Shown here: positions 10,249 to 53,895 of the stretch, piece after piece
How the letters are laid out: each line of letters opens with the position of its first letter
How positions within the stretch are numbered: the stretch's first letter is position 1
Assembly (NCBI RefSeq): GCF_009914755.1
Contig: NC_060931.1
Source: the human T2T-CHM13v2.0 reference genome, Homo sapiens
Strand: one strand, 5' to 3'
Length of the DNA: 64,000 nt
Program-made: the position numbers and the translations under genes
The notes under the pieces: generated by a model
Seen by the model: only the letters and a program-made list of their open reading frames with translations
Told to the model about the DNA's origin: nothing
Databases searched by the model: none

Positions 10249-10359
10249 GGGGTGGAGCCAAGATGGCCAAATAGGAACAGCTCTAGTCTACAGCTCCCAG
10301 TGTGAGCGACACAGAAGACGGGTGATTTCTGCATTTCCAACTGAGGTACCAGGTTCATC

Positions 10360-10698
10360 TCACACGGGAGTGCCGGACAGCAGATGCAGGACTGGGTGCA
10401 ATGCACCGTGCGTGAGCTGAAGAAGGGCGACGCATCGCCTCACCCAGGAAGCGCAAGGGGTCAGGGAACTCCCTTTCCTAGTCAAAGAAAGGGGTGACAG
10501 ACGGCACCTGGAAAATCGGGTCACTACAACCCTAATACTGTGCTTTTCCAACAGGCTTATCAAACGGCACACTAGGATATTATATCCCACACCTGGCTTG
10601 GAGGGTCCTATGCCCATGGAGCCTCGCTCATTGCTGGCACAGCAGTCTGAGATCAAACTGCAAGGTGGCAGCGAGGCTGGGGGAGAGGCGCCCGCCAT
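10360..10698 (-). CDS. L1 antisense ORF0, open, 112 aa
   Basis: MAGASPPASLPPCSLISDCCASN matches primate L1 ORF0. Donors CAG|GTGTGG (10593) and CAG|GTGCCG (10508) are intact. Expression is not shown. Confidence 0.7.
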   Translation of the reverse strand: MAGASPPASLPPCSLISDCCASNERGSMGIGPSKPGVGYNILVCRLISLLEKHSIRVVVTRFSRCRLSPLSLTRKGSSLTPCASWVRRCVALLQLTHGALHPVLHLLSGTPV

Positions 10699-11273
10699 TG
10701 CTCAGGCTTGAGTACATAAACAAAGCAGCCCGGAAGCTCGAACTGGGTGGAGCCCACCACAGCTCAAGGAGGCCTGACTGCCTCTGTAGACTCCACCTCT
10801 GGGGGCAGGGCACAGACAAATAAAAGACAGCAATAACCTCTGCAGACTTAAATGTCCCTGTCTGACAGCTTTGAAGAGAGTAGTGATTCTCCCAGCACAC
10901 AGCTTGAGATCTGAGTATGGGCAGACTGCCTCCTCAAGTGGGTCCCTGACCCCCGAGTAGCCTAACTGGGAGGCGCCCCCAAGTAGGGGCGGACTGACAC
11001 CTCACATGGCTGGGTACTCCTCTGAGACAAAACTTCCAGAGGAATGATCAGGCAGCAGCATTAGCAGTTCACCAATATCCGCTGTTCTGCAGCCACCGCT
11101 GCTGATACCCAGGCAAACAGGGTCTGGAGTGGACCGCCAGTAAACTCCAACAGACCTGCAGCTGAGGGTCATGACTGTTAGAAGGAAAACTAACAAACAA
11201 AAAGGACATCCACACCAAAACCCCATCTGTACATCACAATCATCAAAGACCAAAGGTAGATAAAACCACAAAG

Positions 11274-12291
11274 ATGGGGAAAAAACAGAGCAGAAAAACC
11301 AGAAACTCTAAAAATCAGAGCGCCTCTCCTCCTCCAAAGGAACGCAGCTCCTCACCCGCAACAGAAAAAAGCTGGACGGAAAATGACTTTGACAAGCTGA
11401 GAGAGGAAGGCTACAGAAGATCAAACTACTCCAAGCTAAAGGAGGAAGTTCGAACCAATGGCAAAGAAGTTAAAAACTTTGAAAAAAAAACTAGACGAAT
11501 GGATAACTAGAATAACCAATGCAGAGAAGTCCTTAAAGGACCTGATGGAGCTGAAAACCACGGCACAAGAACTACGCAACGAATGCACAAACCTCAGTAA
11601 CCGATGCGATCAACTGGAAGAAACGGTATCAGCGATGGAAGGCAAAATGAATGAAATGAAGTGTGAAGAGAAGTTTAGAGAAAAAAGCATAAAAAGAAAT
11701 GAACAAAGCCTCCAAGAAATATGGGACTATGTGAAAAGACCAAATCTACATCTAATTGGTGTACCTGAAAGTGATGGGGAGAATGGAACCAAGTTGGAAA
11801 ACACTCTGCAGGATATTATCCAGGAGAACTTCCCCAATCTAGCAAAGCAGGCCAACATTCAAATTCAGGAAATACAGAGAATGCCACAAAGATACTCCTC
11901 AAGAAGAGCAACTCCAAGACACATAATTGTCAGATTCACCAAAGTTGAAATGAAGGAAAAAATGTTAAGGGCAGCCAGAGAGAAAGGTCAGGTTATCCAC
12001 AAAGGGAAGCCTATCAGACTAAAAGCTGATCTCTCGGCAGAAACTCTACAAGTCAGAAGAGAGTGGGGGCCAATATTCAACATTCTTAAAGAAAAGAGTT
12101 TTCAACCCAGAATTTCATATCCAGCCAAACTAAGCTTCATAAGTGAAGGAGAAATAAAATACTTTACAGACAAGCAAATGCTGAGAGATTTTGTCACCAC
12201 CAGGCCTGCCTTACAAGAGCTCCTGAAGGAAGCACTAAACATGGAAAGGAACAACCGGTACCAGCCACTGCAAAAACATGCCAAATTGTAA
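11274..12291 (+). pseudogene. L1 ORF1p, frameshifted in the A-run near 11485
   Basis: ORFs 11274-11510 (MGKKQSRK) and 11458-12291 (coiled coil, RRM and CTD, ending QKHAKL). Confidence 0.95.
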
Positions 12292-49852: not shown

Positions 49853-52800
49853 ATCACAGGATCAAATTCACACATAACAGTATTAACTTTAAATGTAAAT
49901 GGACTAAATGCTCCAATTAAAAGACACAGACTGGCAAATTGGATAAAAAGTCAAGACCCATCAGTGTGCTATATTCAGGAAACCCATCTCACGTGCAGAG
50001 ACACACATAGTCTCAAAATAAAAGGATGGAGGAAGATCTACCAAGCAAATGGAAAACAAAAAAAGGCAGGGGTTGCAATCCTAGTCTCTGATAAAACAGA
50101 CTTTAAACCAACAAAGATCAAAAGAGACAAAGAAGGCCATTACATAATGGTAAAGGGATCAAATCAACAAGAAGAGCTAACTATCCTAAATAAATATGCA
50201 CCCAATACAGGAGCACCCAGATTCATAAAGCAAGTCCTGAGTGACCTACAAAGAGACTTAGACTCCCACACATTAATAATGGGAGACTTTAACACCCCAC
50301 TGTCAACATTAGACAGATCAACAAGACAGAAAGTCAACAAGGATATCCAGGAATTGAACTCAGCTCTGCACCAAGCGGACCTAATAGACATCTACAGAAC
50401 TCTCCACCCCAAATCAACAGAATATACATTTTTTTCAGCACCACACCACACCTATTTCAAAACTGACCACATAGTTGGAAGTAAAGTTCTCCTCAGCAAA
50501 TGTAAAAGAACGGAAATTATAACAAACTGTCTCTCAGACCACAGTGCAATCAAACTAGAACTCAGGATTAAGAAACTCACTCAAAACCACTCAACTACAT
50601 GGAAACTGAACAACTTGCTCCTGAATGACTACTGCGTACATAACGAAATGAAGGCAGAAATAAAGATGTTTTTTGAAACCAACGAGAACAAAGACACAAC
50701 ATACCAGAATCTCTGGGACGCATTCAAAGCAGTGTGTAGAGGGAAATTTATAGCACTAAATGCCCACAAGAGAAAGCAGGAAAGATCCAAAATTGACACC
50801 CTAACATCACAATTAAAAAAACTAGAAAAGCAAGAGCAAACACATTCAAAAGCTAGCAGAAGGCAAGAAATAACTAAAATCAGAGCAGAACTGAAGGAAA
50901 TAGAGACACAAAAAACCCTTCAAAAAATTAATGAATCCAGGAGCTGGTTTTTTGAAAGGATCAGCAAAACTGATAAACCGCTAGCAAGACTAATAAAGAA
51001 GAAAAGAGAGAAGAATCAAATAGATGCAATAAAAAATGATAAAGGGGATATCACCACCGATCCCACAGAAATACAAACTACCATCAGAGAATACTACAAA
51101 CACCTCTACGCAAATAAACTAGAAAATCTAGAAGAAATGGATAAATTCCTCGACATATACACTCTCCCAAGACTAAACCAGGAAGAAGTTGAATCTCTGA
51201 ATAGACCAATAACAGGAGCTGAAATTGTGGCAATAATCAATAGCTTACCAACCAAAAAGAGTCCAGGACCAGATGGATTCACAGCCGAATTCTACCAGAG
51301 GTACAAGGAGGAACTGGTACCATTCCTTCTGAAACTATTCCAATCAATAGAAAACGAGGGAATCCTCCCTAACTCATTTTATGAGGCCAGCATCATCCTG
51401 ATACCAAAGCCAGGCAGAGACACAACAAAAAAAGAGAATTTTAGACCAATATCCTTGATGAACATTGATGGAAAAATCCTCAATAAAATACTGGCAAACC
51501 GAATCCAGCAGCACATCAAAAAGCTTATCCACCATGATCAAGTGGGCTTCATCCCTGGGATACAAGGCTGGTTCAATATACGCAAATCAATCAATGTAAT
51601 CCAGCATATAAACAGAACCAAAGACAAACACCACATGATTATCTCAATAGATGCAGAAAAGGCCTTTGACAAAATTCAACAGCCCTTCATGCAAAAACTC
51701 TCAATAAATTAGGTATTGATGGGACATATCTCAAAATAATAAGAGCTATCTATGACAAACCCACAGCCAATATCATACTGAATGGGCAAAAACTGGAAGC
51801 ATTCCCTTTGAAAACTGGCACAAGACAGGGATGCCCTCTCTCACCACTCCTATTCAACATAGTGTTGGAAGTTCTGGCCAGGGCAATTAGGCAGGAGAAG
51901 TAAATAAAAGGTATTCAATTAGGAAAAGAGGAAGTCAAATTGTTCCTGTTTGCAGATGACATGATTGTGTATCTAGAAAACCCCATTGTCTCAGCCCAAA
52001 ATCTCCTTAAGCTGATAAGCAACTTCAGCAGTCTCAGGATACAAAATCAATGTACAAAAATCACAAGCATTCTTATACACCAACAACAGACAGAGAGCCA
52101 AATCATGAGTGAATTCCCATTCACAGTTGCTTCAAAGAGAATAAAATACCTAGGAATCCAACTTACAAGGGATGTGAAGGACCTCTTCAAGGAGAACTAC
52201 AAACCACTGCTCAAGGAAATAAAAGAGGATACAAACAAATGGAAGACCATTCCATGCTCATGGGTAGGAAGAATCAATATCGTGAAAATGGCCATACTGC
52301 CCAAGGTAATTTACAGATTCAATGCCATTCCCATCAAGCTACCAATGACTTTCTTCACAGAATTGGAAAAAACTACTTTAAAGTTCATATGGAACCAAAA
52401 AAGAGCCCGCATCGCCAAGTCAATCCTAAGCCAAAAGAACAAAGCTGGAGGCATCACACTACCTGACCTCAAACTATACTACAAGGCTACAGTAACCAAA
52501 ACAGCATGGTACTGGTACCAAAACAGAGATATAGATCAATGGAACAGAACAGAGCCCTCAGAAATAATGCCGCATATCTACAACTATCTGATCTTTGACA
52601 AACCTGAGAAAAACAAGCAATGGGGAAAGGATTCCCTATTTAATAAATGGTGCTGGGAAAACTGGCTAGCCATATGGAGAAAGCTGAAACTGGATCCCTT
52701 CCTTACACCTTATACAAAAATCAATTCAAGATGGATTAAAGACTTAAATGTTAGACCTAAAACCATAAAAACCCTAGAAGAAAACCTAGGCATTACCATT

Positions 52801-53670
52801 CAGGACATAGCCATGGGCAAGGACTTCATGTCTAAAACAACAAAAGCAATGGCAACAAAACCCAAAATTGACAAATGGGATCTAATTAAACTAAAGAGCT
52901 TCTGCACAGCAAAAGAAACTATCAGAGTGAACAGGCAACCTACAAAATGGGAGAAAATTTTCGCAACCTACTCATCTGACAAAGGGCTAATATCCAGAAT
53001 CTACAATGAACTCAAACAAATTTACAAGAAAAAAACAAACAACCCCATCAAAAAGTGGGTGAAGGACATGAACAGACACTTCTCAAAAGAAGACATTTAT
53101 GCACCCAAAAAACACATGAAAAAATGCTCACCATCACTGGCCATCAGAGAAATGCAAATCAAAACCACTATGAGATACCATCTCACACCAGTTAGAATGG
53201 CAATCATTAAAAAGTCAGGAAACAACAGGTGCTGGAGAGGATGTGGAGAAATAGGAACACTTTTACACTGTTGGTGGGACTGTAAACTAGTTCAACCATT
53301 GTGGAAGTCCGTGTGGTGATTCCTCAGGGATCTAGAACTAGAAATACCATTTGACCCAGCCATCCCATTACTGGGTATATACCCAAAGGACTATAAATCA
53401 TGCTGCTATAAAGACACATGCACACGTATGTTTATTGCGGCATTATTCACAACAGCAAAGACTTGGAACCAACCCAAATGTCCAACAATGATAGACTGGA
53501 TTAAGAAAATGTGGCACATATACACCATGGAATACTATGCAGCCATAAAAAATGATGAGTTCACGTCCTTTGTAGGGACATGGATGAAATTGGAAATAAT
53601 CATTCTCAGTAAACTATCACAAGAACAAAAAACCAAACACCGCATATTCTCACTCATAGGTGGGAATTGA
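49853..53670 (+). pseudogene. L1 ORF2p, disrupted
   Basis: Start codon is ATC. A 582-aa open stretch covers the endonuclease and N-terminal RT, then a frameshift near 51692 and stops at 51901 and 53317. Confidence 0.95.
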
Positions 53671-53895
53671 ACAATGAGAACACATGGACACAGGAAGGGG
53701 AACATCACACTCTGGGGACTGTTATGGGGTCGGGGGAGGGGGGAGGGATAGCATTGGGAGATACACCTAATGCTAGATGACGAGTTAGTGGGTGCAGCGC
53801 ACCAGCATGGCACATGTATACATATGTAACTAACCTGCACATTGTGCACATGTACCCTAAAACTTAAAGTATAACAATAATAAATTAAAAAAAAA

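What the first reader, a model, noticed from the sequence alone, without database searches (positions are those of the whole stretch)
10249..53895. Two L1s of different age share private mutations: apparent repeated gene conversion across 37.6 kb
Seen: both copies carry the same base at seven scattered sites (copy 1/copy 2): 10526/48148 A, 12473/49971 A, 12962/50463 C, 13134/50635 C, 14129/51629 C, 15185/52677 G and 15369/52861 C. Known (L1 consensus from memory): these give ORF0 RVGVT>RVVVT and ORF2 VCCIQ>VCYIQ, KIDH>KTxH, NDYW>NDYC, KDKN>KDKH, AICRK>AIWRK and ATKAK>ATKPK. None is CpG decay, five are transversions, and several hit conserved residues, so an active master is unlikely to have carried them. 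Subfamily diagnostics (128-bp 5'UTR block, 3'UTR sites), the inactivating frameshifts and the TSDs all differ, so this is not a duplication. Inference: many short non-allelic conversion tracts between neighbouring direct repeats, i.e. local concerted evolution of dead L1s.
Basis: partly seen in the sequence, partly recalled or inferred. Interest (0 to 1): 0.85.

Follow-up and report, generated by a model that had tools for sequence, protein, structure and literature searches.

The report
Neighbouring dead L1s exchanged scattered bases
Two separately inserted, inactive L1 retrotransposons 37.6 kb apart on human chromosome 7 share seven rare base changes, best explained by several short copy-overs of DNA between them (non-allelic gene conversion), a known process seen here in a clear single case.

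Summary
Both L1s carry the stated base at all seven site pairs. They are independent insertions: different target-site duplications, unrelated flanks and different frameshifts. About 109 diagnostic point differences and a 128-bp 5'UTR block separate them.

The variants are rare genome-wide where I measured a denominator:
- site 2: 128 of 4784
- site 4: 15 of 3767
- site 6: 538 of 12424
- site 7: 50 of 11702

No other copy in the listed carriers has two of the four rarest variants.

Among 31 aligned full-length L1s, the pair shares 5 non-CpG variants found in no other copy. The expectation is 0.66, and only 1 of 349 distant pairs reaches 5. Six of the seven sites sit in 54-79 bp runs of perfect identity.

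Best reading: at least seven short non-allelic gene-conversion patches. 'Concerted evolution' overstates it, because overall identity (93.9%) is not raised.

The control copies show the same effect. L1 pairs up to 200 kb apart share about 5 times more pair-exclusive variants than pairs over 1 Mb apart. Direction and date need ape orthologues, which I could not obtain. This is a known mechanism, so interest is moderate.

The parts
10249..16387 (+). c1: older full-length L1 carrying the 128-bp 5'UTR block. ORF2 is broken into six open pieces of 80 aa or more. It is sister to L012 in the tree.
10224..10248 (.). 5' target-site duplication of c1. The repeat is at 16388-16412, with up to 25 matching bases including A's next to the tail.
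11016..11143 (+). 128-bp 5'UTR block present in c1 and in 20 of the 32 control copies. It is absent from c2 and from 12 young control copies.
47871..53932 (+). c2: younger full-length L1 lacking the block. It branches at the base of the block-less clade. ORF2 is in three open pieces.
47857..47870 (.). 5' target-site duplication of c2 (14 bases, repeated at 53933-53946). It differs from that of c1.
10526..10526 (+). Shared site 1 (c2 48148), C>A. The antisense ORF reads RVVVT. There are 12 exact-word carriers genome-wide. The identity run is 10470-10527 and the interval free of diagnostic differences is 64 bp.
12473..12473 (+). Shared site 2 (c2 49971), G>A, ORF2 Cys>Tyr. Carried by 128 of 4784 copies. 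The identity run is 12451-12512 and the diagnostic-free interval is 119 bp.
12962..12962 (+). Shared site 3 (c2 50463), T>C, Ile>Thr. There are 543 carriers. The identity run is only 7 bp and the diagnostic-free interval is 56 bp.
13134..13134 (+). Shared site 4 (c2 50635), G>C, Trp>Cys. Carried by 15 of 3767 copies. The identity run is 13115-13168 and the diagnostic-free interval is 299 bp.
14129..14129 (+). Shared site 5 (c2 51629), A>C, Asn>His. There are 38 carriers. The identity run is 14123-14179. The diagnostic-free interval is 294 bp and also holds shared bases at 14183 and 14228.
15185..15185 (+). Shared site 6 (c2 52677), T>G, Cys>Trp. Carried by 538 of 12424 copies, and also by control copies L038 and L040. 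The identity run is 15148-15215 and the diagnostic-free interval is 103 bp.
15369..15369 (+). Shared site 7 (c2 52861), G>C, giving Pro. Carried by 50 of 11702 copies. The identity run is 15349-15427 and the diagnostic-free interval is 154 bp.
12845..12845 (+). Candidate converted diagnostic site. c2 carries the old-clade T, as c1 does, where all 6 intermediate and 12 young control copies have C.

Best explanation
After the younger L1 (c2) inserted 37.6 kb downstream of the older one (c1), DNA repair at breaks in one copy repeatedly used the other copy as a template. This is non-allelic, non-crossover gene conversion. Each event copied a patch of a few tens of bases, bounded here at 56 to 299 bp, and carried a mutation that had arisen in one copy into the other.

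At least seven separate patches are needed, because diagnostic old/young differences lie between every pair of shared sites. Both elements were already dead or dying, so the exchange is neutral. It homogenised only a few percent of the differences between them.

Shown:
- the shared rare bases;
- the independence of the two insertions;
- the excess over unlinked controls;
- the lack of any third carrier of the combination;
- the long identity runs around the sites.

Inferred: the mechanism, its repetition, and its neutrality. Not determined: direction and date of each event.
For: 1. All seven bases are present. They deviate from 30-32 of the 31-32 control copies that have a base there.
2. The insertions are independent: different TSDs, no flank homology, different frameshifts, different clades in the tree, and presence or absence of the 128-bp block.
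3. The variants are rare genome-wide: 128 of 4784, 15 of 3767, 538 of 12424 and 50 of 11702, plus 12, 38 and 543 carriers for the other three. Reading the full carrier lists for sites 1, 4, 5 and 7, only c1 and c2 carry two or more of them. L041 has only 2+4 and L042 only 3+5, and both are about 93-96% identical to c1 and c2.
4. There are 5 pair-exclusive non-CpG variants (4 transversions) against 0.66 expected (P 6e-4). Only 1 of 349 pairs more than 1 Mb apart reaches 5. c1 shares 0-3 minority bases with each of the 12 other young copies.
5. Six of the seven sites lie in identity runs of 54-79 bp. The median of merged runs around 255 unshared private sites is 22 bp. The median test gives P 0.015. 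The '6 of 7 at 54 bp or more' test gives P 3e-4, but its threshold was chosen after seeing the data.
6. The same signal appears in controls. Sixteen pairs up to 200 kb apart average 3.56 pair-exclusive variants, against 0.68 for 420 pairs over 1 Mb apart (P 1.6e-7). For transversions the figures are 2.0 against 0.19. Adjusted for load, 57 are observed against 13.5 expected.
7. The pair L012-L013 replicates the pattern. They lie 157 kb apart, in different clades, with unrelated flanks. They alone combine two variants that have 34 and 99 carriers genome-wide.
Against: - No contiguous mosaic tract with co-converted diagnostic markers is seen. The seven sites are isolated between diagnostic differences.
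- At 53 robust diagnostic columns c2 has 1 old state (12845). The 12 unlinked young copies have 0-1 each, so there is no excess.
- Overall c1-c2 identity is not raised.
- Site 3 sits in a 7-bp identity run.
- Three of the seven variants recur at 2.7% or more and weigh little on their own.
- In the full-length control sample, the four opposite-strand neighbour pairs show no excess (0, 1, 0, 2). Simple gene conversion does not predict this, though n is small.
- The identity-run threshold was chosen post hoc. Against random matching positions the median test is only P 0.10.
- Only one assembly was examined.
Confidence: 0.68

Rival explanations
1. One recombination event formed a long heteroduplex of about 5 kb between c1 and c2. 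Patchy mismatch repair converted only a few mismatches and restored the rest. This is still non-allelic gene conversion, but a single event rather than repeated ones.
For: All seven sites lie within one 4.8-kb span of the same two elements. The converted fractions are similar for private markers (7 of about 270) and diagnostic markers (1 of 53).
Against: Nick-directed mismatch repair normally converts long stretches in one direction (general knowledge, not tested). At least 100 diagnostic mismatches inside the span were left unconverted. The separate 54-79 bp identity runs look like separate patches.
Confidence: 0.12
2. Chance parallel mutation. Both copies hit the same sites independently, helped by site-specific mutation hotspots in L1 sequence.
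For: Each variant recurs elsewhere in the genome (12 to 543 carriers). Copies carrying two of the variants by chance do exist (L041, L042). The finding was picked from a scan of many windows.
Against: Variants 4 and 7 sit at 0.4%, the ordinary background for one specific transversion. Expected sharing is 0.66 against 5 observed, and 1 of 349 distant pairs reaches 5. Four of the 5 pair-exclusive variants are transversions, whereas distant pairs average 0.19 shared transversions. A hotspot model does not explain the dependence on genomic distance.
Confidence: 0.08
3. Both elements descend from one minor L1 source lineage that carried the seven variants, so the variants are inherited rather than exchanged.
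For: Variants 2 and 6 behave as lineage polymorphisms of older L1s. Control copy L040 has both and L038 has variant 6.
Against: c1 and c2 lie in different clades, with six control copies branching between them. About 109 diagnostic differences and the 128-bp block separate them. No other copy in the listed carriers combines two of variants 1, 4, 5 and 7. A trans-acting lineage would not place its only two members 37.6 kb apart. Several variants replace residues kept in solved ORF2p and in all 32 controls.
Confidence: 0.05
4. Assembly or polishing artefact. Reads from one L1 were used to correct the other, creating false shared bases.
For: Only one assembly could be examined. Both elements are masked repeats.
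Against: The copies differ at about 374 positions, and unique flanks anchor each 6-kb element. An artefact would not leave the neighbouring differences untouched. The same distance-dependent sharing is seen for pairs 100-160 kb apart, where mis-assignment should be no more likely than for distant copies. This is inference, not tested on reads.
Confidence: 0.05

Closest known systems
Sequence homogenisation of neighbouring Alu elements by non-allelic gene conversion. This is Aleshin and Zhi 2010, known to me only as summarised in Fawcett and Innan 2019 (PMC6598467, parts 1-2 of 4 read) and mentioned in PMC8230782 (passages read).
   Same: Dispersed, independently inserted retroelements that lie close together share more sequence than distant ones. 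The evidence comes from non-diagnostic positions, and the effect depends on distance.
   Different: Here the elements are 6-kb L1s rather than 300-bp Alus. The review gives a range of under 10 kb for Alus. This pair is 37.6 kb apart, and my controls show the effect out to about 160 kb. This is a single dissected pair rather than a genome-wide statistic.
Subfamily-switching gene conversion of Alu elements at orthologous loci (Kass 1995, Roy 2000 and others as cited in PMC6598467; 98 cases in PMC8230782, passages read).
   Same: An old, inactive element and a younger one exchange sequence after insertion. Old elements can be donors.
   Different: Those cases are recognised by runs of at least three adjacent diagnostic positions or by whole-element replacement, and are confirmed across species. 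Here the diagnostic positions are almost untouched (1 of 53) and only isolated private variants are shared.
Interlocus gene conversion between segmental duplications and duplicated genes.
   Same: Short non-crossover tracts of tens to a few hundred bp, a distance effect, and sharing of derived variants between paralogues.
   Different: The partners here are not duplicates of one locus. They are separate insertions, already about 3% or more diverged when the younger one arrived.
L1PA subfamily succession, with loss of a roughly 129-bp 5'UTR segment in the L1PA3 lineage (recalled from Jacobs 2014 and Khan 2006, not read here).
   Same: c1 has the block and c2 lacks it. The ladder-like tree of the controls fits a single succession of lineages.
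   Different: Subfamily names were not assigned with a reference library. 'L1PA4-like' and 'L1PA3-like' are my inference from the block, the tree position and the private loads.

Membership tests
Non-allelic (interlocus) gene conversion between dispersed repeats | The partners are paralogous sequences at different loci, not copies made by duplicating one locus. | tested here: met
   The TSDs differ. There is no flank homology, while a true duplicated pair (L004-L006) gave 99-100% flank matches in the same test. The frameshifts differ.
Non-allelic (interlocus) gene conversion between dispersed repeats | The partners share derived variants that common ancestry cannot explain. | tested here: met
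   The seven bases deviate from 30-32 of the 31-32 controls that have a base there. The copies lie in different clades. No third copy in the listed carriers combines the rare variants.
Non-allelic (interlocus) gene conversion between dispersed repeats | The sharing exceeds what unlinked copies of the same families show. | tested here: met
   5 observed against 0.66 expected (P 6e-4). Only 1 of 349 distant pairs reaches 5.
Non-allelic (interlocus) gene conversion between dispersed repeats | Contiguous tracts in which neighbouring markers are co-converted (a mosaic of diagnostic positions). | tested here: inconclusive
   Six of the seven sites lie in 54-79 bp identity runs (P 0.015 to 0.10 by median tests). 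However, only 1 of 53 robust diagnostic columns is converted, and diagnostic differences separate all seven sites.
Non-allelic (interlocus) gene conversion between dispersed repeats | The pre-conversion state is seen at the orthologous locus in another species or haplotype. | not testable with these tools
   No ape genome or second human assembly was available. The only genome open to search was the window's own.
Segmental or tandem duplication of one L1 | Homologous flanks, a shared TSD and shared inactivating lesions. | tested here: not met
Members of one L1 sub-subfamily (shared source element) | Other unlinked copies carry the same combination of variants, and the two copies group together in a tree. 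| tested here: not met
   Carrier lists, L041 and L042 and the tree. Caveat: exact 21-base words miss copies with a nearby mutation, and the tool states that its counts for repeats are lower bounds.

The most novel reading that the evidence does not exclude
The pair is one visible case of a pervasive process. Full-length L1s of any subfamily lying within roughly 200 kb of each other keep exchanging patches of tens of bases, at a per-site rate comparable to point mutation.

In my small control set, neighbours share about 4-5 times more pair-exclusive variants than distant copies, and about 10 times more transversions. Carriers of rare variants fall within 200 kb of each other about 8 times more often than expected.

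If this is general, it would bias divergence-based L1 ages and subfamily trees. It would let dead copies pass mutations to neighbours, including to still-active ones. It would also give a genome-wide readout of the distance scale over which ectopic repair searches for a template.
Probability: 0.45. Interest if true: 0.65.

Novelty: new member of a known kind. Interest (0 to 1): 0.45.

Why it matters
The mechanism is known, so the single pair matters mainly as a clean, dissectable example. The two L1s are of different age, every shared base is identified, and each possible patch is bounded.

The wider value lies in what the controls suggest. Exchange between neighbouring L1s appears common enough to be measured from one genome. 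That would affect L1 dating and lineage reconstruction, which assume that copies decay independently. It also offers a natural assay for how far, and between how diverged, sequences ectopic repair operates in the human germ line.

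Tried and rejected
I used pattern searches and fetched stretches instead.

2. I planned 100 control copies and got only 40. The test of strand orientation on more pairs was therefore not done.

3. 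I tried a gapped pattern linking the block-deletion junction to sites 11432/11447. It was meant to ask whether other block-less copies share c2's ancestral states. Whether c2's ancestral states at 11432, 11447, 11999, 13028, 13074 and 14232 are lineage-typical or were converted from c1 stays open. The haplotype at 12987/13028/13074 does occur in two intermediate controls, so I did not count these sites as conversions.

5. The minor-lineage idea was rejected after L041 and L042 turned out to carry only two variants each.

6. An excess of old states in c2 at diagnostic columns was looked for and not found.

7. Same-strand dependence was suggested by the 16 full-length neighbour pairs. The carrier lists do not back it: by my reading, 13 opposite-strand and 7 same-strand near pairs. 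This is left unresolved.

8. In one search, three of the seven carrier pairs aligned badly (73-83% identity). One member is probably rearranged. These three say nothing either way.

9. Six answered literature searches found no genome-wide study of exchange between neighbouring L1s in the held library. Subscription-only papers are not covered.

Full report
**What is there**

The window holds two full-length L1 elements in the same orientation.
- c1 spans 10249-16387 and c2 spans 47871-53932.
- They align at 94.0% over 5279 bp. Their 5'UTRs align at 88.5% over 767 bp.
- c1 is flanked by a target-site duplication of up to 25 bases (10224-10248 and 16388-16412).
- c2 is flanked by a different duplication of 14 bases (47857-47870 and 53933-53946).
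- The 140-170 bases outside each element show no similarity between c1 and c2. The same test gave 99-100% matches for a truly duplicated pair, L004-L006.
- The frameshifts differ. Near 14180-14195, c1 has a 1-bp insertion and c2 a 1-bp deletion a few bases further on. The ORF2 fragments also break at different places.

**The observation**

All seven site pairs carry the stated base in both copies.

For a reference I used the window's own genome, which can be searched but not downloaded. I fetched 6.5-kb stretches around the first 40 of the 100 listed unselected matches to a 21-base ORF2 word with any base at site 2, all on contig C1. I aligned them on c1 coordinates.

Eight copies were dropped for rearrangement or poor coverage: L002, L005, L007, L017, L018, L019, L023 and L034. 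That left 32.

Against these 32, c1 and c2 share eight bases held by at most 10% of the others. The seven changes are C>A, G>A, T>C, G>C, A>C, T>G and G>C.

The protein readings are right.
- Solved human ORF2p chains carry C, I, W, N, C and D at the six ORF2 positions. c2 has Y, T, C, H, W and P there, and c1 has W and P at the last two.
- Both copies read IRVVVTR in the antisense 5'UTR frame. That this frame is ORF0 is my recollection, not a tool result.

**The two elements differ in age**

- A maximum-likelihood tree of the 34 sequences is ladder-like.
- c1 pairs with L012, among copies that keep a 128-bp 5'UTR block (c1 11016-11143).
- c2 sits at the base of a clade of 12 copies that lack the block.
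- Six control copies branch between c1 and c2.
- Column by column, 237 columns have c1 in the old-clade state and c2 in the young-clade state. Of these, 128 are the block.
- A further 171 columns are private to c1, 101 are private to c2, and 17 are shared deviations. The 17 include CpG sites and a few columns of tail noise.
- From memory, loss of a roughly 129-bp 5'UTR segment marks the younger L1PA3 lineage. I therefore read c1 as L1PA4-like and c2 as early block-less L1PA3-like. No reference library was used.

**How rare the variants are**

Exact 21-base words gave these genome-wide carrier counts:

| Site | Carriers | Copies matching with any base |
|---|---|---|
| 1 | 12 | not measured |
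| 2 | 128 | 4784 |
| 3 | 543 | not measured |
| 4 | 15 | 3767 |
| 5 | 38 | not measured |
| 6 | 538 | 12424 |
| 7 | 50 | 11702 |

Three variants (2, 3 and 6) are therefore recurrent or lineage polymorphisms. Control L040 has variants 2 and 6, and L038 has variant 6. The other four are at the background level for one specific substitution.

I read the complete carrier lists for sites 1, 4, 5 and 7. No element other than c1 and c2 appears in two of them.

One copy on C12 has variants 2+4 and one on C1 has 3+5. I fetched both (L041, L042). Each carries only those two variants, and they are 93-96% identical to c1 and c2. So there is no third member of a 'seven-variant' lineage.

Two caveats apply. 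Exact words miss copies with a nearby mutation, and the tool says its repeat counts are lower bounds.

**Is it more than chance?**

- c1 shares 0-3 non-CpG minority bases with each of the 12 unlinked young copies, and 0-9 with all 32. The 9 is with its own sister, L012. c2 shares 0-5 with all 32. c1 and c2 share 7.
- A stricter measure counts non-CpG variants carried by exactly two of 31 copies. For this I dropped three more copies, L003, L004 and L006, from a duplicated region.
- On that measure c1-c2 scores 5, of which 4 are transversions. Only 1 of 349 pairs more than 1 Mb apart with under 96% identity reaches 5.
- Scaling by each copy's own load of rare variants gives an expectation of 0.66 (P 6e-4).
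- Overall identity is not raised. c1-c2 is 93.9%, and c1 against the 12 young copies is 93.3-94.4%.

**Signs of tracts**

- Diagnostic old/young differences lie between every two of the seven sites, so seven separate patches are needed.
- The intervals free of diagnostic differences around the sites are 64, 119, 56, 299, 294, 103 and 154 bp.
- The runs of perfect c1-c2 identity containing the sites are 58, 62, 7, 54, 57, 68 and 79 bp.
- Runs formed by merging across 255 unshared private sites have a median of 22 bp.
- Seven random draws reach the observed median with P 0.015 against that null, and P 0.10 against random matching positions.
- 'Six of seven at 54 bp or more' has P 3e-4 and 0.005 respectively, but I chose that threshold after seeing the data.
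- At 53 columns where the old clade differs robustly from both the intermediate and the young copies, c2 has one old state (12845). Other young copies have 0-1, so there is no excess.
- c2 also keeps ancestral states at several columns where all 12 young controls are derived (11432, 11447, 11999, 13028, 13074, 14232). The 12987/13028/13074 haplotype exists in two intermediate controls, so these may simply reflect c2's basal position.

**The controls show the same thing**

- This result was unplanned. Among the 31 copies, 16 pairs lie within 200 kb of each other. They average 3.56 pair-exclusive non-CpG variants, against 0.68 for 420 pairs over 1 Mb apart (Mann-Whitney P 1.6e-7). For transversions the figures are 2.0 against 0.19 (P 5e-12).
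- Leaving out c1-c2 and all pairs with 96% identity or more, P is 9e-5.
- Adjusted for load, the near pairs show 57 against 13.5 expected. The 29 pairs at 200 kb to 1 Mb show 26 against 17.7.
- All near pairs kept in the test have unrelated flanks.
- Cross-clade neighbours resemble c1-c2. L012-L013 (157 kb apart) and L030-L031 (20 kb apart) each share 5 scattered variants.
- For L012-L013 I checked two of the variants genome-wide. They have 34 and 99 carriers, and only these two copies have both.
- By my reading of the carrier lists for sites 2, 5 and 7, there are 14 further pairs of carriers within 200 kb, against 1.7 expected from the spacing of L1s on C1. Six more appear in the list.
- Four such pairs that aligned well are 93.7-97.2% identical over 1 kb, so they are not recent duplicates. 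Three others aligned badly and say nothing.
- The expectation ignores stronger L1 clustering on other chromosomes, so the fold excess is rough.
- The four opposite-strand neighbour pairs in the full-length sample show no excess (0, 1, 0, 2). In the carrier lists, however, opposite-strand near pairs outnumber same-strand ones, 13 to 7. I leave strand dependence open.

**Explanation**

Short-tract non-allelic gene conversion between c1 and c2 fits four facts together:
- independent insertions;
- pair-exclusive rare variants, mostly transversions;
- no third carrier of the combination;
- longer identity runs at the sites, with the same distance-dependent sharing among unrelated L1 neighbours.

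The rivals fare as follows.
- Chance or hotspots, a shared minor lineage, and duplication each fail at least one test.
- An assembly artefact is unlikely but untested.
- One patchy heteroduplex event remains possible, instead of seven separate events.
- Direction and date are unknown.

'Concerted evolution' is too strong. Only about 2-3% of markers are homogenised (7 of about 270 private markers and 1 of 53 diagnostic ones).

**Comparison with what is known**

- Non-allelic gene conversion between transposable-element copies is established. The review by Fawcett and Innan describes mosaic Alu subfamily patterns, LTR exchange on the Y chromosome, and raised exchange between Alus closer than 10 kb, citing Aleshin and Zhi 2010 (PMC6598467; I read parts 1-2 of 4).
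- A 2021 screen lists 98 Alu type-switch conversions, including old-to-young donors (PMC8230782; passages read).
- A 2026 preprint on pangenome L1s mentions gene conversion only as one cause of lost signal in old copies (PMC13192797; one passage read).
- My six answered searches found no genome-wide analysis of exchange between neighbouring L1s in the held library. Subscription journals are not covered, and early L1 papers on gene conversion that I recall were not checked.
- Tract lengths of tens to a few hundred bp in mammalian non-crossovers are recalled, not read here.

**Verdict**

The mechanism is of a known kind and this is a new instance of it. The possible generality of the effect among L1 neighbours is the part most worth following up.

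Noticed in passing
Control loci L001-L040 (contig C1, 6.9-59.1 Mb): Independently inserted full-length L1s within 200 kb of each other share about 5 times more pair-exclusive non-CpG variants than pairs over 1 Mb apart (3.56 against 0.68; transversions 2.0 against 0.19). Examples include the cross-clade pairs L012-L013 (157 kb apart) and L030-L031 (20 kb apart), with 5 each.
   Followed up: partly
L036/L037 (103 kb apart) and L014/L015 (158 kb apart) on C1: These neighbours are each other's closest relatives among the 12 young copies (98.1% and 97.4% identity), yet their flanks are unrelated. Either heavy exchange has pulled them together, or sibling insertions landed near each other. I did not resolve which.
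   Followed up: no
window 53880-53946: c2 ends in an A-run, then about 30 bases of unrelated sequence, then a second A-run before the target-site duplication. This looks like a short 3' transduction or a tail rearrangement.
   Followed up: no
Carrier list of site 6, variant G: Carriers are clumped at the megabase scale. Of the first 100 listed, 18 lie in C3:17.7-26.0 Mb and 26 in C4:4.0-22.2 Mb. This may reflect L1-rich deserts, a regionally clustered old sub-lineage, or spreading between neighbours.
   Followed up: no
L003-L007 (C1:12.36-12.74 Mb): This is a cluster of duplicated L1-bearing segments. L004 and L006 are 99.1% identical with matching flanks and share 179 pair-exclusive variants. 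They served as a positive control for duplication and were removed from the distance tests.
   Followed up: yes
window 30686-31410, 57840-58588 (+) and 46612-46697 (-): These are further L1 3'-end fragments (83.5%, 73% and 91% identity to c1). None covers any of the seven sites.
   Followed up: no
c2 versus L008 (alignment columns in c1 coordinates): The ancestral states are not nested. c2 is ancestral and L008 derived at 11432, 11447, 11999, 13028, 13074 and 14232. The reverse holds at 11775, 12045 and 14588. So one of the two is a mosaic, or early block-less lineages recombined.
   Followed up: partly
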